Of a stretch of 35,783 bases of DNA, positions 1 through 12,318 are shown one piece after another (positions within the stretch are counted from its first letter, which is position 1; each line of letters starts with the position of its first letter). The position numbers and the translations under genes are program-made. Origin of the DNA: a virus; UHGV virus genome UHGV-0117379. One strand, 5' to 3'. Below the pieces are notes generated by a model that was not told where the DNA came from, made no database searches, and saw only the letters and a program-made list of their open reading frames with translations.

Positions 1-49
1 ACAGTAGCAAGTATGTGTACATTTGTACATAAACCGGAAGAGGAAAATC

Positions 50-613
50 ATGGCCCGTAGACCAAACGATCCGCAGCGCCGCGAGCGCATCCTGCAGGCG
101 ACGCTGGATACCATCGCGGCGCATGGCGTCCATGCGGTAACGCACCGTAAAATCGCCACCTGCGCGAATGTGCCGCTGGGGTCACTGACCTACTATTTTA
201 GCGGCATTGAGGCGTTAATTGAGGAGGCGTTCAGCCTGTTTACTGCCGAGATGTCGGCGCACTACCAGCAAGGCTTCGTCGGGGTAACGAATCAGGAGCA
301 AGCCTGTGATGCCATTGCTGAGCTGATTTTCAGCGCCCAGGTGACCACGGCGCGTAATATGAAGCTGATGTACCAGCTGTATGCTTTTTGCAGCAGTCAG
401 CCGGCGCTGAAGGCGGTGATGCAAAACTGGATGCGGCGCAGCCAGCAGACGCTGGAGCAGTGGTTCGCCCCCGATACCGCCCGCGGTCTCGACGCCTTTA
501 TTGAAGGGATGACCTTGCACTTTGTCACCGACCGCGCGCCGCTGTCGAAGGCGGCAATCCGCATGATGGTCGGGCAGCTGGCGGGGGAGAGGGCGCAGGA
601 AGAGGGGCGCTGA
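50..613 (+). CDS. TetR/AcrR-family transcriptional regulator (host gene flanking the prophage; N-terminus reminiscent of the RcdA/YbjK group)
   Basis: ORF 23..613. The in-frame ATG at 50 follows a GGAAGAGG Shine-Dalgarno sequence. N-terminal TetR-type HTH ([27 protein letters not shown]...GSLTYYF). GC-rich composition contrasts with the AT-rich junction that follows. Confidence 0.8.
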
Positions 614-735
614 AGCGGCGTTTCACCCGGAATGGCTAAACGCAGGCAACAAAAAACCCATTTATGTAAACGGGATAATGAAAACAATAAGTTAGATTAA
701 AAACAATAAGTTAGGTTGGTGGTCAGTGGTGGTTA
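614..735. other. Chromosome-prophage junction (attL region). Contains an A6-CCC..GGG imperfect palindrome (651..679) and two tandem 15-mers AAAACAATAAGTTAG (681..695, 700..714).
   Basis: Non-coding AT-rich gap between a host-type gene and the 3' end of the integrase gene. The palindrome resembles the style of the P2 att core as I remember it (A-run, CCC..GGG). Read on the minus strand it is a hairpin plus T-run, so it could terminate int. The exact core is not determinable from one junction. Confidence 0.4.
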
Positions 736-1788
736 TTACGGGGTAATGCCAACCGCTGCCGCCACTTTGTCGCCACTTGGCAGCGTTGCCAGAGGATTGA
801 AACGGAGCGCCGTTTCCAGATGATCCGGTGCCAGATGTGCGTAACGCATAGTCATTTTTATATCGTGGTGTCCGAGAATTTTTTGTAAGGCCAGAATGTT
901 TCCACCCGACATCATGAAGTGCGCCGCAAACGTATGGCGCAGAACGTGTGTGAGTTGACCGCGAGGGAGCACGATAGACGTTTTTTCCATCACGGATAAA
1001 AATTGAAAATAGCAGTCTGTGAAGAAATTGAACCCATCAAGCGCCATGATCTCTTCGTAAAGCTCTTTACTGATAGGGATGCTTCTGTTTTTCTTCCCCT
1101 TCGTTCTGACAAAGGTAATTCGGTATTTGGTCACCTGTGAGCGGGTAAGATTTACGGCTTCACGCCAGCGTGCGCCTGTGCTTAAGCATATCTTAACTAC
1201 CAGTGCCAGAATTGGGTCCTGACGTTTGCAATCAGCCAGCAATTCAACAATCTGCTCATGGGTAAGCCATGCCATCTCTTTTTCTGCGATGGTGAATTTT
1301 CGCATGTTCTCCAGTGGGTTCGGATACGACCATTCGCCCAGACGGGATAGTTCGCTAAAAACACTACTTAGATAGCTTTGCTCCAGGTTAATGGTGACCG
1401 GGCTTGCTCCTTTCTTCCATTTCTCGCTGAAGTAGATCTCGCCTGTCAGGCGTTTATCTCGATAGTGGGCAAACATTTTAGAGGTGAGATCGGTTGCAAG
1501 AGGATTGCCTAGAGCGTCAACCATCAGCAGCAATTTGTCATAGACATGCTGTCCAGCAGTCAGAGATTTACCATGTAGTTTGAACCATAGCTCAACCACG
1601 TCTTTCAGGGTTCGACGATCCACTGATTCGCCCAGCCAGGGCTTTGATTCGGTTTCTTCCATCGTGTGACGCTCAAAAGCCAGAGCTTCGCCTTTGGTGG
1701 CGAATTGTTTACGCACACGACGCCCACTTCGTCCGGCGGGGTAACATTCGCAAAGCCATTTCCCTGTGGTGAGTTTTCGTACTGCCAT
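736..1788 (-). CDS. int: Tyrosine recombinase / phage integrase (P2 Int family)
   Basis: ORF 736..1944. The likely start is the ATG at 1788 (MAVRKLTTGKW...), giving 350 aa. C-terminal catalytic motifs are present: ARWRE (Arg), HVLRHTFA (His-x-x-Arg) and GHHDIKMTMRYAHL (catalytic Tyr). Positioned at the prophage end and transcribed toward att, as in P2/186. Confidence 0.9.
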   Translation of the reverse strand: MAVRKLTTGKWLCECYPAGRSGRRVRKQFATKGEALAFERHTMEETESKPWLGESVDRRTLKDVVELWFKLHGKSLTAGQHVYDKLLLMVDALGNPLATDLTSKMFAHYRDKRLTGEIYFSEKWKKGASPVTINLEQSYLSSVFSELSRLGEWSYPNPLENMRKFTIAEKEMAWLTHEQIVELLADCKRQDPILALVVKICLSTGARWREAVNLTRSQVTKYRITFVRTKGKKNRSIPISKELYEEIMALDGFNFFTDCYFQFLSVMEKTSIVLPRGQLTHVLRHTFAAHFMMSGGNILALQKILGHHDIKMTMRYAHLAPDHLETALRFNPLATLPSGDKVAAAVGITP

Positions 1789-1976
1789 AAAAAATGCCCT
1801 CCAGTAGAGAGCATTTTTACTGTATGTATAACCAGTGTCAATGTATGAAATCCTACGACCATACATCTCACTGAAGCCATAATGAAGTTGGCTATTCTTT
1901 TTGCTATGTGAGCATGTAACTTTTGCGGTTAACCTGCGGCTCATTTTTATTTTAGACGCAGATATAAAAACAAAAG

Positions 1977-2168
1977 TTATCGTGAGTTTTTAGTACAGAT
2001 TTTTTTGGATTTACTAATAGTTCCATCATTGCAAACGAATTTGCCATCTGAGGTACAGTGAGAAACACCTCCCTTTTTCCCTGAGCAGGGATAATTTCTA
2101 GCATAGGTAGTTAGTGGGTTTAATAACAAAGAACATGACAAAACCACAAAAAATACCTTACCAAGCAT
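1977..2168 (-). CDS. Small exported Cys-rich protein (63 aa; signal peptide or possible lipoprotein signal); non-backbone gene between cI and int
   Basis: A strong GGAGG lies 7 nt upstream of the ATG at 2168. Hydrophobic N-terminus [23 protein letters not shown]. The mature part carries 4 Cys ([31 protein letters not shown]). AT-rich. Same strand as cI, starting 16 nt downstream of it. Confidence 0.65.
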
Positions 2169-2183
2169 AGTTTCCTCCCGGTA

Positions 2184-2840
2184 CTATTTAACATACTTGA
2201 CTGTTAAACTTATAATTTTACCAATTATTTCAATGTCTTCTATCTTGCATTCGAAGGCTCTGTTTCCACCCTCGACGAAGATTCTTCCACCGGGTAAACG
2301 AGTAATGTCACGGATCGTTATTTCGCCATCAATACTTATTACCCATTTACCATCACGTATATCATCAAATTCTTTATCACAAATAAATTCAGAATTGTTA
2401 TCTGTGATGACAAAAGGTTTTTTAAACGTAGAGGGTAGAAATCCCTTATCAAAAATATAAAAACCGTCTTTCTGCAATGCTCCATCAGACAATAAATATT
2501 TTTCTACTTCTATAGTATTTGTATTTGCTGATGCTTGCTTTGAACCATGCCCTGTTGTTAGCCAATTAAGCGAGGTGCCCGTTTCAAGGGCGCACTGGAT
2601 TACCCAATCTGCTGGAAAAATATCACGCATATAGCGCGTTGCCATGGTGCTCTTAGAAACACCTAAATGATCACAGAGAGCCTGACGAGTACCGAACCCA
2701 TATGCTTCAACTAAACGTTCTATGGCTTTCTTACCGCCGCTATTGAAATCCACAAGTCCTCCAAAGAAATCCAAAATTCGTTGACAGATTCCAAAAGCGA
2801 TCTTAAAGTTGAACCAGAAGTGTTCTTTTGGAGCCTTCAC
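2184..2840 (-). CDS. cI: 186-type CI immunity repressor (N-terminal HTH, C-terminal oligomerisation domain)
   Basis: Similar to remembered phage 186 CI (..AYGF...HCALETG..L.WLLTG.G; LSEGALKSDGFYI; TIRE/DLT.LPGG.I.V.GG...FEC). The ORF opens with GTG at 2840. A GTG at 2753, preceded by GGAGGA, would give 189 aa (186 CI is about 192 aa) and would leave room for pR, so the start is ambiguous. Confidence 0.8.
   Translation of the reverse strand: MKAPKEHFWFNFKIAFGICQRILDFFGGLVDFNSGGKKAIERLVEAYGFGTRQALCDHLGVSKSTMATRYMRDIFPADWVIQCALETGTSLNWLTTGHGSKQASANTNTIEVEKYLLSDGALQKDGFYIFDKGFLPSTFKKPFVITDNNSEFICDKEFDDIRDGKWVISIDGEITIRDITRLPGGRIFVEGGNRAFECKIEDIEIIGKIISLTVKYVK
2781..2809 (+). promoter_or_regulatory. 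Candidate early lytic promoter pR (TTGACA-17 nt-TAAAGT) driving the apl-cII-A operon
   Basis: TTGACA at 2781..2786, a 17-nt spacer, then TAAAGT at 2804..2809. Oriented toward the early operon that starts at 2899. Lies in the cI/apl switch region, as in 186. Confidence 0.5.
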
Positions 2841-2898
2841 TACTAATCACGACAAACAACGGCTCGCCACAAGCCATATCTAGAAGGAATGTTGCCTT

Positions 2899-3102
2899 AT
2901 GACACCTAACATTTCAATTACTCTGAATACACCACATGTCACAATCGAACGTTATAGCGAACTGACTGGCCTTTCTATTGATACGATTAACGACATGTTG
3001 GCTGATGGCCGACTACCTCGTCATCGTCTTCGTAAAGACAAAAAACGTGAAAAGGTAATGATTAACCTGGCTGCTCTGACTGTTGATGCTTTGTCTGCTT
3101 AA
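2899..3102 (+). CDS. Apl/Cox-like small HTH excisionase / switch regulator (67 aa)
   Basis: First gene of the rightward early operon, divergent from cI. The helix-turn-helix-like segment ([24 protein letters not shown]) is typical of MerR/excisionase-type HTH proteins. The assignment rests mainly on position. Confidence 0.6.
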
Positions 3103-3166
3103 TAGACGTCTATTTTCGCAATAAGACGCTGAGTTCGATTTTGCGATAAGTTCGGAGTTGAAAACC

Positions 3167-3676
3167 ATGTTTGATTACCAAGTTTCCAAACATCCACATT
3201 TTGATGAAGCCTGTCGTGCATTCGCACTGCGCCACAATCTGGTGCAACTGGCAGAACGTGCGGGCATGAATGTGCAGATTCTGCGGAACAAGCTGAACCC
3301 AGCTCAACCTCATTTATTAACCGCACCAGAAATCTGGCTGCTTACCGATCTGACTGAAGATTCAACGTTGGTAGATGGTTTTCTGGCACAGATTCATTGT
3401 CTGCCATGTGTACCGATTAATGAGGTAGCAAAAGAGAAACTGCCACATTACGTCATGAGTGCAACCGCAGAGATCGGGCGTGTTGCTGCAGGTGCGGTAT
3501 CTGGCGATGTAAAAACCAGTGCAGGTCGTCGTGATGCTATCAGCAGCATTAACTCTGTAACACGACTGATGGCGCTGGCGGCTGTTTCATTGCAGGCCCG
3601 TTTACAGGCTAATCCTGCGATGGCGAGTGCAGTTGATACCGTGACTGGCCTCGGTGCTTCATTCGGTTTGCTGTGA
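3167..3676 (+). CDS. cII: 186-type CII lysogeny-establishment activator
   Basis: Near-colinear with remembered 186 CII ([21 protein letters not shown]...[20 protein letters not shown]...[28 protein letters not shown]...GASFGL). ATG at 3167, 9 nt after GGAG. Confidence 0.85.
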
Positions 3677-9403: not shown

Positions 9404-9622
9404 ATGTCAAGTATCGCCGCATTGAAGCTGGGTAATCCAGTTGAACGTTTGGCACGGGTTCTGAAAGAGAACCAGGACAAGCTCAATCTGAGTAAAGATG
9501 GTTTTGTGTCCGTAGATTTGTCCAACGAAGAAGCTATGAAAGCCATCCGAGATCAGATGGATAAGCTTGAAGGCATCAAAACGAGCACTGTTAAAGCAAA
9601 ATATTATTACAGAACCCGATAA
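9404..9622 (+). CDS. Hypothetical soluble 72-aa protein; first gene of a coupled two-gene cargo operon
   Basis: ATG at 9404 follows AAGGAGGGG. Its stop TAA (9620..9622) overlaps the ATG of the next gene (ATAATGG). Confidence 0.65.
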   Translation: MSSIAALKLGNPVERLARVLKENQDKLNLSKDGFVSVDLSNEEAMKAIRDQMDKLEGIKTSTVKAKYYYRTR

Positions 9623-10464
9623 TGGCAACATTACTTTTAGCAGTGATTTTGGTTAGTGGTTTTATATATGTAAACCTATCACTTTCAACACGTTATAGAT
9701 ATAAGCGTTCCAATGGCTGGGACGCTTATTTTTTTGTGGCTGCATGGGGAATTGTCTTTTTCCTCGCTGGCGGCTTCCTTACCTTCGCTCTTAACATCAG
9801 CGGTGGGTTTCGCTGGTTTTCTAATGCGCTGAATCTGACTCCAGACAGCTTTAACGGGATGTTATCCACCACAACCGATAAACCGCAGCGCATCAATGAA
9901 ATTAAGCAAATCGCGTGGGTTGTGATTTCAATAGTTCTCGCGGCGCTGTTCGGTTGGCTAAACAAACGCCGTACTTCAAAAGGGGATCGCCGTTGGGATG
10001 CACTGGCAAAGGCAGTGGGAAACAATGCTTTTGAATCGCTGCTCATGGAAGCATCAGCTCGCCAGTTTCCTATCATTGCTACACTTTCATCACGCAAAAT
10101 CTATGTAGGGCTGGTGACTTGCCCTGCGTTGGAAAATGGATTGTCGGAACACCTTGAAATTCTCCCCTTGCTGAGCGGATATCGTGATAAAGACGACCTA
10201 ACGATAAATATCACGACAAACTATCATCAGCACTATCTTGATAGCGGTGTTATCAATGGGATGTCGCGCCTGAATATCCAGGATTTCCGTGTGCTTCTCC
10301 CTAAAGATGAAGTTGAAACCATCTCGTTTTTTGATACTGAAACGTATAACAAATTTAAAGAAAACGAAGCGCGTGACCGGAAAGACTGCCGCAAGTTGGG
10401 TGGTAAAAAGCCATCCGCACGCAGGAGAAAGACTGCTGGCGACGCAGAGCAGGGTAGTGCATGA
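9622..10464 (+). CDS. Hypothetical inner-membrane protein (280 aa; 3 N-terminal TM helices, cytoplasmic C-terminal domain and basic tail)
   Basis: Hydrophobic segments at about aa 2-21, 35-57 and 97-113. The C-terminal part of about 160 aa has no recognised motif. Followed by an intrinsic terminator. Occupies the tin/old cargo position. Confidence 0.7.
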   Translation: MATLLLAVILVSGFIYVNLSLSTRYRYKRSNGWDAYFFVAAWGIVFFLAGGFLTFALNISGGFRWFSNALNLTPDSFNGMLSTTTDKPQRINEIKQIAWVVISIVLAALFGWLNKRRTSKGDRRWDALAKAVGNNAFESLLMEASARQFPIIATLSSRKIYVGLVTCPALENGLSEHLEILPLLSGYRDKDDLTINITTNYHQHYLDSGVINGMSRLNIQDFRVLLPKDEVETISFFDTETYNKFKENEARDRKDCRKLGGKKPSARRRKTAGDAEQGSA

Positions 10465-10512
10465 CTATGCTGCATGAATTTGCATGATCGTTTGAGGATC
10501 GTTTTAGCTCCG

Positions 10513-10537
10513 GCCCGCCAGTTCAGGCGGGCTTTTT
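10513..10537 (+). terminator. Rho-independent terminator (GCCCGCC-AGTTCA-GGCGGGC-TTTTT)
   Basis: Perfect 7-bp GC stem, 6-nt loop and T5 run, 49 nt after the stop at 10464. Confidence 0.8.
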
Positions 10538-10581
10538 CATATCTCATGCAGGTGCATGAAAACCACTACACAAAGCGGGCA

Positions 10582-10600
10582 GGCGTGGCGGGGATACGAG
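10582..10600. other. cos cohesive-end site (GGCGTGGCGGGGATACGAG)
   Basis: The first 13 nt are identical to the remembered 186 cohesive end (GGCGTGGCGGGGAAAGCAT) and near-identical to P2 (GGCGAGGCGGGGAAAGCAC). The following CGCGCGCT also resembles the P2 left end (..TGCGCGCTGA). Confidence 0.6.
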
Positions 10601-10608
10601 CGCGCGCT

Positions 10609-10637
10609 CATTACTTTTATAATTCTAGGGTTATAAT
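10609..10637 (+). promoter_or_regulatory. Candidate promoter of the KAP NTPase gene (two TATAAT hexamers at 10618..10623 and 10632..10637)
   Basis: Two consensus -10 hexamers lie 29-48 nt upstream of the ATG at 10666. AGGAG SD at 10654..10658. The -35 elements are weak. Confidence 0.4.
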
Positions 10638-10665
10638 ACAGGGCTATCTTTCTAGGAGAAAACAC

Positions 10666-12318
10666 ATGTCCTTAGAGTTTATCAAAGAACAGTTGTCAGA
10701 TTTTATCTCATCTACAGAACCAGAAGTAATGGCTATACAGGGTGAATGGGGAATTGGTAAAACCTATACTTGGAATACGTTCCTAAAAGATAATAAAGAT
10801 AAGGTTGCATTTAATAGATATAGTTATGTCTCTCTTTTTGGTATAAATTCACTAGATTCTTTAAAGTATTCTATTTTTGAGAATGCAATTACAAAGGAAT
10901 ATATTGGAAATAAACCTGATTTGGAGACAGCAACAACAAACGCAAGTGGACTTTTTGAATCGTTTTCTCGAAAAGCCGCAGGTTTGTTAAAAGAAGCTCC
11001 TGTTGTAAAAAACTTCTCTACGACACTTGAAGCAATGTCATTTCTGACCGTTTCTAAAATGATTGTAGTAATAGATGACTTAGAAAGGCGTGGCAAAAAC
11101 TTAGATGTTAAAGATGTTTTAGGGCTAGTATCTCTATTAAAGGAGCAGAAGGATTGTAAGGTGGTTCTATTGCTTAACAATGGCACAGCTAGTATGGAGG
11201 ATTATTCTACTTATAAAGAAAAGGTCATTGATAGAGATATCACTTACAATCCAACACCAGAAGAATGCGCAGATATAGCCTATAAAGGTGATTTTCATGT
11301 TTATAACTTGTTAAGTAAATATTCCATTTCTTTAGGTATCAAGAATATTCGAATCTTAAAAAAGATAGAACGTTTTTTCGTGTCCTTAACACCAAATATT
11401 ATAGGTGATGTTGAGACAATTTCAAATGAAGTTGCGCATTCATTAACTCTGTATTGTTGGAGCCATTACGGATTTTCTCCAGAGGGAGATGTGCCATCAC
11501 TAGAATATATTAGGGGAGTGAGGAATATATATACTTATAATGACAAGGAAGAAGGCCATGAGAAAGTCTGGCTTAATACCTTGCTTAAATATGGATATAG
11601 AAAAACGAATGATCTTGATGAGGTTCTTATTGATATGGTTAGATATGGCTATCTTGATAAGAGCAGTTTCCAAAGACAAATAAGCCTAAGGAATGAGGAG
11701 ATTACGCGTGATAATAAACGAGGTTCCTTATCTGAGGCATGGCAGTTCTTTCATAATTCATTTGATGACAATCAAAATCAGGTTGTTGACAAGCTATATC
11801 AAGCGGTGGTTGATGGGATGAAGTATGTGACTCCAAGTGATTTAGATAATGTTGTCGGACTATATAGGGATTTCGGAGAGAATGCTAAGGCGAGTGAATT
11901 GATTGAACAGTTTATTAATTATGGTAACGATGCTCTAAAGGAATATGTTCAATCTATTTATGTGAATGTTCATCCCGTAAGAGATGCTGAGTTGTTGTCA
12001 AAAATTCAAGCCTATTCTAATATTATAAATATTGATGGTTCAATATATGATGTTCTTAAGAAATTATCAGGTCAGAATGGTTGGTCTGATAGACATGAGG
12101 AAATATTGGATGCTGCTTCAGTAGATGACTACTATCAATTATTTAAAAATGTCATTCTTGATGGTGGTGATTCAATAATAGCTACGGCGCTTAAATTCGG
12201 AAATTATAGTAATGGTTCTGATAGAATGAATCGTATAGGGAAAAAGGCAAGGGATGCCTTGATAAGAATTGGAGATGAATCGGCGATTAATAAAATACGT
12301 GTAAGGCGATTTTTGTGA
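10666..12318 (+). CDS. KAP-family P-loop NTPase (550 aa, no inserted TM helices)
   Basis: Walker A GEWGIGKT (10741..10764), Walker B IVVIDDLER (11062..11088) and a downstream NIRILKKIERFF motif fit KAP NTPase signatures (GxWGxGKS/T; hhhhDDLDR; PRxIKRFxN). Strongly AT-rich (20/60 GC in 11101..11160). The start is taken downstream of the terminator and cos, which lie inside the longer ORF 10474..12318. Confidence 0.8.
   Translation: MSLEFIKEQLSDFISSTEPEVMAIQGEWGIGKTYTWNTFLKDNKDKVAFNRYSYVSLFGINSLDSLKYSIFENAITKEYIGNKPDLETATTNASGLFESFSRKAAGLLKEAPVVKNFSTTLEAMSFLTVSKMIVVIDDLERRGKNLDVKDVLGLVSLLKEQKDCKVVLLLNNGTASMEDYSTYKEKVIDRDITYNPTPEECADIAYKGDFHVYNLLSKYSISLGIKNIRILKKIERFFVSLTPNIIGDVETISNEVAHSLTLYCWSHYGFSPEGDVPSLEYIRGVRNIYTYNDKEEGHEKVWLNTLLKYGYRKTNDLDEVLIDMVRYGYLDKSSFQRQISLRNEEITRDNKRGSLSEAWQFFHNSFDDNQNQVVDKLYQAVVDGMKYVTPSDLDNVVGLYRDFGENAKASELIEQFINYGNDALKEYVQSIYVNVHPVRDAELLSKIQAYSNIINIDGSIYDVLKKLSGQNGWSDRHEEILDAASVDDYYQLFKNVILDGGDSIIATALKFGNYSNGSDRMNRIGKKARDALIRIGDESAINKIRVRRFL

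What the first reader, a model, noticed from the sequence alone, without database searches (positions are those of the whole stretch)
1945..2183. Small exported Cys-rich protein gene embedded in the lysogenic cI-int transcription unit
Seen in sequence: a 63-aa ORF starts 16 nt downstream of the cI stop on the same strand, with a consensus GGAGG SD, in an AT-rich patch between cI and int. Its N-terminus is a signal peptide. It may be cleaved after TYA, or it may be a short lipoprotein signal (VLSC). The mature ~40-aa part has four cysteines in a C-x9-C-x7-C-x11-C pattern and is lysine-rich. Established knowledge: in 186-type phages cI and int are co-transcribed from pL in the lysogen, so a gene inserted here is expressed whenever repressor is made. 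That is the classic arrangement for lysogenic-conversion or exclusion factors. Inference: a periplasmic or outer-surface peptide altering the cell envelope (receptor masking, exclusion, or host interaction).
Basis: partly seen in the sequence, partly recalled or inferred. Interest (0 to 1): 0.5.

Follow-up and report, generated by a model that had tools for sequence, protein, structure and literature searches.

The report
Prophage-borne exported YdcA-family mini-protein
A real, strongly conserved 63-codon gene sits between the repressor and integrase genes of a 186-like prophage. It encodes a small, secreted, disulfide-bonded, positively charged protein of the widespread but uncharacterised YdcA family, and it probably acts in the cell envelope of the lysogen.

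Summary
Window 1977-2168 (minus strand) is a 63-aa ORF. Its ATG lies 15 nt after the cI stop, with GGAGG 5 nt upstream. It has a signal peptide and a mature C-x9-C-x7-C-x11-C, Lys-rich domain.

The gene is under strong purifying selection: 11-12 synonymous against 1 conservative change between E. coli alleles. It passes the curated NCBIfam YdcA model NF007463, and its homologues carry PF27300. It occurs in 630 of 5426 complete E. coli genomes, including BL21.

YdcA genes recur directly downstream of prophage repressors. Examples are other 186-like prophages, an unannotated ORF in Haemophilus phages HP2/S2, and beta-proteobacterial prophages. In relatives the cI-int slot is empty or holds other cargo, such as the defence gene PD-Lambda-1.

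Conservation points to signal peptidase I cleavage after Ala23, not to a lipoprotein.

Two leads bear on function. The domain resembles the lobes of Dis2 in the Legionella Dot/Icm secretion system. In rare relatives it is fused to secreted nucleases of three or four families.

The function is untested. My best guess is an envelope-acting conversion or exclusion factor, possibly one that binds DNA. It is a member of a known, uncharacterised family and of moderate interest.

The parts
1977..2168 (-). YdcA-family gene (63 codons + TAA stop at 1977-1979)
   Evidence: ORF list. NF007463 scores 115.8 bits, above the cut-off of 93. phrog_6000 E = 1.9e-34. Homologues carry PF27300 'YdcA'. pN/pS is about 0.03.
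2100..2168 (-). Predicted Sec signal peptide (residues 1-23, [23 protein letters not shown]). Inferred signal peptidase I cleavage after Ala23.
   Evidence: Across the family this segment varies in sequence but is always hydrophobic. Ala at -1 is invariant in A1 (31 sequences), and near-invariant sequence starts right after it. The most hydrophobic 9-mer is VVLSCSLLL, mean Kyte-Doolittle 2.72. No SignalP run was possible.
1980..2099 (-). Mature 40-aa domain [40 protein letters not shown] (four Cys, net charge about +7)
   Evidence: In A2 (28 sequences), P27, C28, S29, K32, G33, G34, C38, F44, C46, D48, G49, S52, S54, K55 and C58 are invariant. AF2 pLDDT is 83-91 over residues 31-60. Calculated pI is 9.7.
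2174..2178 (-). Shine-Dalgarno GGAGG, 5 nt upstream of the ATG
   Evidence: Read directly from the sequence. The 15-nt cI-ORF gap is 100% identical in five E. coli alleles whose cI differs by 5-16%.
2184..2753 (-). 186-type CI repressor gene. The GTG start at 2753 follows RefSeq; the open frame extends to 2840.
   Evidence: Pfam Phage_CI_repr 3.3e-31 and Phage_CI_C 4.7e-29. RefSeq annotation of the identical E. coli C51 locus.
1789..1976 (-). Structured 188-nt spacer between the ORF and int. It has a hairpin at 1920-1976 just after the ORF stop and a 13-bp hairpin at 1790-1818 that buries the int Shine-Dalgarno.
   Evidence: RNA fold of -53.9 kcal/mol, z = -4.74, 0/200 shuffles as stable. The proximal ~75 nt are shared with prophages that carry other cargo. 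No terminator-like site on the minus strand.
736..1788 (-). P2/186-type tyrosine integrase gene
   Evidence: Pfam Int_N 3.2e-32 and Phage_integrase 7.2e-22.
2889..2917 (-). Candidate lysogenic promoter pL (TTGAAA-17-CAACAT, 8/12), face to face with a pR-like site at 2781-2809 (+)
   Evidence: Relaxed scan and consensus scan. The inferred start sites are about 65 bp apart, as in the known convergent pR/pL arrangement of 186 (my own knowledge, not tested here).
657..674 (-). Terminator-like hairpin + T-run downstream of int. It is the first such site after the operon on this strand.

Best explanation
The ORF is a translated gene of the YdcA family.

Proposed mechanism:
1. It is transcribed with cI, and probably int, from the lysogenic promoter, so it is made whenever repressor is made.
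2. The 63-aa precursor is exported by Sec.
3. Signal peptidase I cuts it after Ala23 (TYA|R).
4. It is oxidised to a roughly 4.3 kDa, two-disulfide, strongly cationic periplasmic mini-protein.
5. It serves the prophage as an accessory (conversion or exclusion) factor in the envelope of the lysogen.
6. The most likely mode of action is binding a polyanionic ligand that crosses or resides in the periplasm. DNA in transit is my leading candidate, because the same domain is the N-terminal module of secreted nucleases from several unrelated families.

What is shown and what is inferred:
- Shown here: gene reality, family membership, operon position, recurrent repressor linkage.
- Inferred from conservation: export and cleavage site.
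- Inference only: exclusion role and DNA binding.

My sub-probabilities:
- real and translated: 0.97
- exported and cut by signal peptidase I: 0.85
- co-transcribed with cI: 0.8
- anti-MGE or exclusion role: about 0.35
- DNA or polyanion binding: about 0.25
For: Coding constraint:
- There are 12-13 nucleotide differences between the window and the E. coli B allele. Of these, 11-12 are synonymous and 1 is R24K.

Family:
- NF007463 scores above its cut-off.
- PF27300 'YdcA' is recorded on the homologues.
- The family has 442 clusters at 50% identity.

Export:
- The signal peptide is variable. Ala at -1 is invariant in A1, and a near-invariant mature domain follows it.
- E. coli K-12 YdcA, 57% identical, is described as having a signal sequence and as predicted periplasmic (PMC11340327).

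Operon:
- The gap after cI is 15 nt with a GGAGG.
- No promoter-like or terminator-like site lies on that strand between cI and the ORF stop.
- In HP2 the homologous ATG overlaps the cI stop, downstream of the annotated pL.
- In Enterobacter prophages the YdcA gene ends 2 nt before int.

Repressor linkage:
- 12 of 71 species-level loci have a phage repressor within two genes upstream.
- 35 of 63 non-redundant viral contexts have a phrog_4 repressor immediately upstream.

Accessory slot:
- Relatives with the same int carry PD-Lambda-1 or other cargo there, or nothing.
- NAR 2026 (PMC13586616) counts the integrase-primase region as a minor defence hotspot of P2-like phages.

Ligand lead:
- The N-terminal YdcA domain is fused to Endonuclease_NS (P0168, P0215, P0157, P0170), SNase (P0128), PLD-type nuclease (P0192) and weakly HNH (P0211).
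- An SNase gene lies just upstream of a YdcA gene in L154.
- The domain has a mean net charge of +4.3 over 55 variants, and K32 and K55 are invariant.
Against: - There is no experimental evidence for expression, export or any phenotype.
- PADLOC has no match.
- The nuclease fusions are rare metagenomic proteins, 1-3 members each. They would equally fit an envelope-anchoring role. One fusion is to a VasL (T6SS) domain, not a nuclease.
- Many family members are chromosomal and not phage-linked, for example K-12 ydcA next to cybB.
- The only published phenotype for a family member is sensitivity of an E. coli W ydcA deletion to 3-hydroxypropionate (PMC7642389). That points to stress physiology rather than exclusion.
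- No SignalP run was possible.
- pL is only an 8/12 consensus match.
Confidence: 0.55

Rival explanations
1. It is a lysogen fitness or stress factor rather than an anti-phage factor. The prophage copy would do what chromosomal YdcA does in the periplasm, for example tolerance to acid or organic acids, and so benefit the host directly.
For: - Deleting ydcA made E. coli W sensitive to 300 mM 3-hydroxypropionate.
- That paper also cites earlier work reporting acid-induced, YdcI-controlled ydcA expression (PMC7642389).
- The prophage and K-12 proteins share 57% identity and all core residues.
- The gene is retained with cI and int in the decayed P2-like prophage of E. coli B/BL21.
Against: - The 3-HP phenotype was suppressed by a yieP deletion, and its mechanism is unclear.
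- This reading does not explain the tight, repeated linkage to phage repressors.
- It does not explain carriage on small plasmids.
- It does not explain the nuclease fusions.
Confidence: 0.2
2. It binds an envelope machine or receptor. Like each lobe of Dis2 in the Dot/Icm outer-membrane cap, the domain would dock onto an outer-membrane-associated protein complex. It would mask or modify that complex.
For: - Dis2 (7muc_AN) is the top hit of the family profile against PDB sequences, E = 7.7e-4.
- It is also the top Foldseek hit: probability 0.97, 38% identity over 39 columns.
- hhalign of the mature domain against Dis2-like proteins gives P = 1.8e-4.
- A Dis2-like protein, P0228, carries PF27300.
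- Dis2 sits near the outer membrane in the T4SS cap (PMC8486379).
Against: - The mature-only profile hit to Dis2 is weak, E = 0.18, and hhalign probability is only 49%.
- The function of Dis2 is itself unknown.
- No T4SS genes lie nearby.
- The extreme sequence conservation from Enterobacterales to Burkholderiales and Rhizobiales fits a universal ligand better than a lineage-specific protein receptor.
Confidence: 0.15
3. It is an outer-membrane or inner-membrane lipoprotein, processed at the VLSC lipobox with Cys12 lipidated.
For: The VLSC motif at residues 9-12 loosely fits a lipobox (sequence). One UniRef entry for a Yersinia relative, P0047, is named 'Lipoprotein'.
Against: - Cys12 is present only in the closest alleles. 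Other members have no Cys there, or have a Cys in a non-lipobox context such as LLFC or LLIC.
- Only seven residues would separate Lys4 from Cys12.
- The conservation boundary and the invariant Ala lie 11 residues further on.
Confidence: 0.04
4. It is a secreted cationic antimicrobial or bacteriocin-like peptide aimed at competitors.
For: It is small, cationic (pI 9.7) and disulfide-stabilised.
Against: - A Sec signal alone delivers only to the periplasm in Gram-negative bacteria.
- No immunity or export genes are adjacent.
- Single-copy chromosomal orthologues are widespread.
Confidence: 0.04
5. It is a chance ORF or an untranslated spacer.
For: The ORF is small and AT-rich. It was not annotated in HP2/S2. 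Its late locus-tag number in BL21 suggests, as an inference, that it was added to that annotation later.
Against: - pN/pS is about 0.03.
- The score is above the curated family threshold.
- Hundreds of homologues share invariant residues.
Confidence: 0.02

Closest known systems
E. coli K-12 YdcA (b1419) and the YdcA family (Pfam PF27300; NCBIfam NF007462/NF007463/NF007464, formerly PRK10040)
   Same: - 57% identity over 53 residues.
- Same size, a signal peptide ending in Ala, the same four-Cys spacing, and the conserved PCSG-KGG-HC...[13 protein letters not shown] core.
- It scores above the curated cut-off of NF007463.
   Different: - K-12 ydcA is a chromosomal gene next to cybB/rydC. This copy is prophage cargo inside the repressor operon.
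- It falls below the cut-off of the K-12-type model NF007462 (68.5 bits against 118), so it is a distinct subfamily.
- The function of the family is unknown.
Unannotated 60-aa ORF of Haemophilus phages HP2 and S2 (NC_003315 complement 2486-2668; L001 2920-3102)
   Same: - 54% identity.
- Same position: immediately after a 186-type cI, on the pL strand, upstream of int.
- P2-like phage.
   Different: - Its start codon overlaps the cI stop (TAATG).
- A second secreted gene, orf1(S), a tRNA_anti-like OB fold, lies between it and int.
- It was never annotated.
Dis2 (Lpg0823), a component of the Legionella pneumophila Dot/Icm T4SS outer-membrane cap (PDB 7MUC/7MUD)
   Same: - It is the only solved structure with a detectable resemblance.
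- It is the top sequence-profile hit and the top Foldseek hit.
- Each Dis2 lobe carries the -GG-x3-C-x4-6-G-x-x-V-C-N-[DN]-G-x-x-S motif.
- A Dis2-like protein is assigned to PF27300.
- It is extracytoplasmic and disulfide-rich (PMC8486379).
   Different: - Dis2 has two lobes and five disulfides and is part of a secretion machine. This protein has one lobe, four Cys and no T4SS context.
- The similarity is marginal without the signal peptide: E = 0.18 and hhalign probability 49%.
Cargo of the cI-int / integrase-primase region of P2/186-like prophages (e.g. PD-Lambda-1 in vB_EcoM-813R9)
   Same: - Same slot, same int family and the same rcdA-adjacent att site.
- The ~75 nt upstream of int are shared.
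- The region is listed as a minor defence hotspot (PMC13586616).
   Different: - PD-Lambda-1 is a 558-aa cytoplasmic DUF4041/T5orf172 protein with demonstrated defence activity. This is a 63-aa exported protein with no match in PADLOC.
- In some prophages YdcA co-occurs with further cargo, as in cI-YdcA-KAP NTPase-int.
Prophage-encoded envelope exclusion proteins (e.g. T5 Llp, phi80 Cor, P22 SieA, HK97 gp15). This is a functional analogy from my own knowledge, not tested here.
   Same: They are small envelope-located proteins. The prophage-encoded examples are expressed in the lysogen and protect against superinfection.
   Different: There is no sequence or fold similarity. Those are lipoproteins or membrane proteins, whereas this is predicted to be soluble and periplasmic. 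No phenotype is known.

Membership tests
YdcA family (NCBIfam NF007463 / Pfam PF27300) | Score above the curated family threshold | tested here: met
   NF007463 scores 115.8 bits against a cut-off of 93, covering residues 5-63 and profile positions 1-58 of 58. PF27300 is precomputed on the homologues and named 'YdcA'. The local Pfam copy lacks PF27300.
YdcA family (NCBIfam NF007463 / Pfam PF27300) | Short precursor (about 55-65 aa) with an N-terminal signal peptide ending in Ala | tested here: met
   The precursor is 63 aa. The hydrophobic N-terminus varies across the family, and Ala23 is invariant in A1 (31 sequences). Cleavage itself is not testable with these tools.
YdcA family (NCBIfam NF007463 / Pfam PF27300) | Conserved four-Cys core PCSGxKGG(V/I)xxC...F(V/I)CxDGxxSxSKxxC | tested here: met
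   In A2, P27, C28, S29, K32, G33, G34, C38, F44, C46, D48, G49, S52, S54, K55 and C58 are all invariant and all present here.
K-12-type YdcA equivalog (NF007462) | Score above the equivalog cut-off | tested here: not met
   68.5 bits against a cut-off of 118. It is a paralogous subfamily, not the K-12 orthologue.
Moron / lysogenic-conversion gene | Present in some but absent from otherwise related prophages at the same backbone position | tested here: met
   - The slot is empty in ESSI2_ev129.
- It holds gp28 in PSP3, PD-Lambda-1 in 813R9, and other cargo in CFT073 and 4LV2017.
- 1112 E. coli genomes match part of the query (the int 5' end). 630 of them carry this ORF.
Moron / lysogenic-conversion gene | Own promoter and terminator flanking the gene (the classical moron definition) | tested here: not met
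   No promoter-like or terminator-like site lies on the minus strand between cI and the ORF stop (2400-1977). It is embedded in the cI operon instead.
Moron / lysogenic-conversion gene | Expression in the lysogen and a host phenotype | not testable with these tools
   This needs transcript or protein detection and phenotyping.
Known anti-phage defence systems (PADLOC-DB 2.0) | Match to a defence protein model | tested here: not met
   No family matches at E <= 0.01. The PD-Lambda-1 cargo of a related prophage was found in the same call, so the search worked.
Bacterial lipoproteins | Conserved lipobox with an invariant Cys at +1, a suitable distance from the N-terminus | tested here: not met
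   Cys12 (VLSC) is confined to the closest alleles. It is absent or in a non-lipobox context elsewhere. No LipoP run was possible.
Dis2 (Lpg0823) of the Dot/Icm T4SS | Two homologous lobes pinned by five disulfides, and association with T4BSS genes | tested here: not met
   There is a single lobe with four Cys and no T4SS genes in the neighbourhood. Only domain-level similarity is seen.

The most novel reading that the evidence does not exclude
The YdcA domain would be a previously unrecognised extracytoplasmic DNA-binding (polyanion-binding) mini-fold. Stand-alone copies wired into prophage repressor operons, and carried on plasmids, would intercept foreign DNA in the periplasm. That would be a new, very widespread class of superinfection or entry exclusion acting on DNA in transit. 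The same module would target secreted nucleases to their substrate and would form the Dis2 lobes of a DNA-transfer-derived T4SS.
Probability: 0.15. Interest if true: 0.75.

Novelty: new member of a known kind. Interest (0 to 1): 0.42.

Why it matters
- **Abundance.** The exact protein is indexed in about 30,000 blocks of the public assembly collection. It is present in 630 of 5426 complete E. coli genomes (11.6%), including the laboratory workhorse BL21.
- **No known function.** Nothing is known about what it does.
- **Likely benefit to lysogens.** It is repeatedly placed under prophage repressor promoters in alpha-, beta- and gamma-proteobacterial elements. That implies a function that pays off specifically in lysogens.
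- **Concrete hypotheses.** The links found here to the Dis2 lobes and to the N-termini of secreted nucleases give the YdcA family its first testable mechanistic hypotheses. The experiments are cheap and use standard strains.
- **If it is not an exclusion factor.** It is still a clean example of a conserved small exported protein. It is also one that annotation pipelines missed in classic phage genomes (HP2, S2).

Tried and rejected
- **Local Pfam.** Only a sub-threshold GULLO2-like hit appeared, because this copy lacks PF27300.
- **Remembered motifs.** From memory I suspected similarity to DUF3761 and to the PBCV basic-adaptor GPRGG motif. Neither appeared even at E <= 10 for the mature domain. 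The GPRGG-like motif occurs only in C-terminal extensions of 10 of 149 longer relatives. I dropped both as evidence.
- **Dis2 similarity.** It shrinks to E = 0.18 once the signal peptide is removed from the profile. I therefore treat it as probable, not proven.
- **PADLOC.** No match.
- **Rfam on 600-3200.** Only a chance CRISPR-DR hit at E = 0.62.
- **Literature.** Searches for YdcA, the RefSeq accession and HP2 found no functional study.
- **Deposited phages.** No enterobacterial phage record encodes the protein. All 27 hits are Moraxella, Acinetobacter, Haemophilus or Pseudomonas phages.
- **Conserved partner gene.** I looked among the neighbours and found none beyond repressors and integrases.
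- **Lipoprotein reading.** Rejected on conservation.
- **Hairpin after the ORF.** It is terminator-like only on the opposite strand, so I did not call it a terminator of the operon.

Full report

Yes. The minus strand of window 1977-2168 holds a 63-codon ORF.

- Upstream, 2184-2753 (open to 2840) encodes a 186-type CI repressor (Phage_CI_repr 3.3e-31, Phage_CI_C 4.7e-29).
- Downstream, 736-1788 encodes a P2/186-type integrase.
- The cI stop (TAG, 2184-2186) and the ORF's ATG (2166-2168) are separated by 15 nt, TACCGGGAGGAAACT.
- GGAGG therefore lies 5 nt before the start codon.
- The 40-aa part after TYA has 9 basic and 2 acidic residues and a pI of 9.7.

The AT-rich patch is real. The ORF is 35.4% GC against 50.6% for the prophage. 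However, the patch covers cI (38.2%) and the 188-nt spacer (36.2%) as well. By composition the ORF looks like part of the immunity module rather than a separate island.

**2. Is it a gene?**

Three independent lines say yes.

- It scores 115.8 bits on the curated NCBIfam model NF007463 (cut-off 93) and 1.9e-34 on phrog_6000.
- A search of 5.8 billion proteins returns 64 homologues, nearly all carrying PF27300. A later output names that family 'YdcA'. An exhaustive profile search finds 442 clusters at 50% identity.
- I compared the window with E. coli alleles whose cI differs by up to 16%. The ORF shows 12-13 nucleotide changes. Of these, 11-12 are synonymous and one is the conservative R24K (pS about 0.27, pN 0.007). 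The 15-nt gap with the Shine-Dalgarno is unchanged.

**3. Export, and lipoprotein or not**

In alignments of 28-31 family members the N-terminal about 20 residues vary freely but stay hydrophobic. An Ala (A23 here) is invariant in the 31-sequence alignment. Immediately after it the sequence becomes almost invariant: [14 protein letters not shown]..[17 protein letters not shown]. This holds from Enterobacterales to Pasteurellaceae, Moraxella and Burkholderiales.

That is the signature of a Sec signal peptide cut by signal peptidase I at TYA|R. The Cys of VLSC is found only in the closest alleles, so the lipoprotein alternative is not supported. I could not run SignalP or LipoP.

E. coli K-12 YdcA is 57% identical. 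The literature describes it only as a 57-aa protein with a signal sequence that is predicted to be periplasmic and of unknown function (PMC11340327).

**4. Transcription unit**

- On the minus strand no promoter-like or terminator-like site lies between cI and the ORF stop. The first terminator-like hairpin after the unit is at 674-657, beyond int.
- A pR-like site (2781-2809, +) faces a weak pL-like site (2917-2889, -) about 65 bp away. From my own knowledge, this reproduces the convergent pR/pL layout of 186, where pL transcribes cI and int.
- In Haemophilus phage HP2 the homologous ORF starts at the cI stop (TAATG), downstream of the annotated pL.
- In Enterobacter prophages the YdcA gene ends 2 nt before int.

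Co-transcription with cI is therefore well supported but not demonstrated.

**5. Distribution and context**

- The window's lysogeny module is 100% identical to E. coli C51.
- 630 of 5426 complete E. coli genomes carry the ORF at 90% nucleotide identity or more, including BL21 and other B strains.
- The exact protein is indexed in about 30,000 blocks of the assembly collection.

In relatives with the same integrase and att site, the cI-int slot is variable.

| Relative | Content of the cI-int slot |
|---|---|
| ESSI2_ev129 | empty |
| PSP3 | gp28 |
| vB_EcoM-813R9 | defence gene PD-Lambda-1 (E = 3e-120) |
| CFT073 | unknown 323-aa protein |
| Klebsiella phage 4LV2017 | unknown 349-aa protein |

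The homology shared with these relatives starts about 75 nt upstream of int. A 2026 survey lists the integrase-primase region as a minor defence hotspot of P2-like phages and does not mention YdcA (PMC13586616).

The ORF is nevertheless not a one-off insertion.

- Divergent YdcA paralogues (61-81% identity, with different signal peptides) follow 186-type cI in other E. coli, Klebsiella, Enterobacter and Yersinia prophages. Some have a KAP NTPase between them and int.
- HP2 and S2 have an unannotated copy.
- In beta-proteobacterial prophages YdcA genes follow a different HTH repressor, with zero or one gene in between.

Overall, 12 of 71 species-level loci have a phage repressor within two genes upstream. 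In addition, 35 of 63 non-redundant viral contexts have a phrog_4 repressor immediately upstream. The viral sampling is biased toward P2-like elements.

Other members are chromosomal, such as K-12 ydcA beside cybB. Still others lie on small Acinetobacter and Psychrobacter plasmids or on Rhizobium plasmids.

**6. Leads to mechanism**

The AlphaFold model is confident for the core: pLDDT 83-91 over residues 31-60.

- The family profile's best PDB hit is Dis2/Lpg0823 of the Legionella Dot/Icm T4SS (E = 7.7e-4).
- Dis2 is also the best Foldseek hit (probability 0.97, 38% identity over 39 columns).
- Part of the profile score comes from the signal peptide. With the mature domain alone the hit stays first but at E = 0.18. 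hhalign against Dis2-like proteins gives P = 1.8e-4 and probability 49%.
- A Dis2-like protein carries PF27300.

I rate homology of the YdcA domain to each Dis2 lobe as probable. Dis2 lies near the outer membrane and has two similar lobes and five disulfides. Its function is unknown (PMC8486379).

The second lead is domain fusion. Among the 149 best representatives, the recognisable domains fused after an N-terminal signal peptide plus YdcA domain are:

- Endonuclease_NS (P0168, P0215, P0157, P0170; P0201 by eye)
- SNase (P0128)
- a PLD-type nuclease domain (P0192)
- weakly, HNH (P0211)
- one VasL domain (P0126)

An SNase gene also sits just upstream of a YdcA gene in L154. In HP2 the next gene is a secreted OB-fold (tRNA_anti-like) protein. 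The domain is typically cationic, with a mean net charge of +4.3 and invariant K32 and K55.

Several unrelated secreted nuclease families share this module. That suggests it supplies either substrate binding (DNA or another polyanion) or envelope localisation. The fusions are rare metagenomic proteins, so this is a lead, not proof.

**7. Best explanation and rivals**

I commit to the following. The product is a Sec-exported mini-protein, processed by signal peptidase I, with two disulfides and a strong positive charge. It is made from the lysogenic operon and acts in the envelope of the lysogen as an accessory factor. It most likely binds a polyanionic ligand, and DNA in transit is the leading candidate. 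That would make it an exclusion factor.

The rivals are:

- a stress or fitness role like that hinted for chromosomal ydcA (3-hydroxypropionate sensitivity of a deletion, PMC7642389);
- docking onto an outer-membrane machine, as Dis2 does (receptor masking);
- a lipoprotein (disfavoured);
- an antimicrobial peptide (disfavoured);
- a spurious ORF (refuted).

**8. Novelty and verdict**

The protein is a member of a named family. RefSeq already labels identical copies 'YdcA family protein' or 'hypothetical protein'. It is therefore a new member of a known but uncharacterised kind.

What appears unreported in the searched library:

- its systematic placement in prophage repressor operons;
- the missed ORF in HP2/S2;
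- the Dis2 and nuclease-fusion connections.

Interest is moderate. The item is ordinary as annotation, but it gives an abundant uncharacterised family a testable function.

Noticed in passing
window 1-642 against 643 onward: The left flank is a TetR/rcdA-like gene at 59% GC. It has no megablast match in 5426 E. coli genomes, yet the prophage lysogeny module is 100% identical to E. coli C51. The host is therefore probably another enterobacterium (Klebsiella-like), and the prophage is shared across genera. The att core lies around 642-661, by comparison with the annotated attL of Klebsiella phage 4LV2017.
   Followed up: partly
window 681-717: There is a tandem 18-nt direct repeat, AAAACAATAAGTTAG(A/G)TT, two copies 19 nt apart. 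It lies between the int stop and the host junction. These are candidate integrase arm-type binding sites.
   Followed up: no
window 1790-1818 (minus strand): The int Shine-Dalgarno (GGAGGG) is buried in a 13-bp hairpin, AAAAAUGCUCUCUACUGGAGGGCAUUUUU. This segment and about 75 nt upstream of int are conserved in prophages carrying different cargo. That suggests translational control of int.
   Followed up: partly
window 1920-1976: A long hairpin directly follows the YdcA stop. It has a T-run, and so looks like a terminator, only on the plus (antisense) strand. Its role is unexplained.
   Followed up: no
window 2188-2216 (+ strand): A near-consensus sigma-70 promoter-like site, TTAACA-17-TATAAT (11/12), points antisense into the 3' end of cI. 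It may be a chance match in AT-rich DNA.
   Followed up: no
[not shown]
   Followed up: yes
L005 2672-4348 (Escherichia phage vB_EcoM-813R9); L169-L173 4198-5529: The same cI-int slot carries the defence gene PD-Lambda-1, annotated there as 'chromosome segregation ATPase'. In other prophages a KAP-family NTPase sits between YdcA and int.
   Followed up: partly
L353 (E. coli BL21-Gold(DE3)) and L181/L182: In the decayed P2-like prophage of E. coli B, cI, YdcA and int are intact, while cII and the replication gene are truncated pseudogenes. The lysogeny module including YdcA may be retained by selection.
   Followed up: no
window 9622-10464 and 10474-12318 (+ strand): Two ORFs of 280 and 614 aa lie between the replication gene and the portal gene. 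This is the main defence hotspot of P2-like phages. Related prophages carry DarT/DarG-like, AIPR or HIRAN genes there. I did not analyse them.
   Followed up: no
L089 (JAEWTL010000113.1, labelled 'MAG: Bacillota bacterium'): This 3-kb contig carries a cI-YdcA-int module whose YdcA protein is 100% identical to the enterobacterial one. It is probably a mis-binned contig.
   Followed up: no
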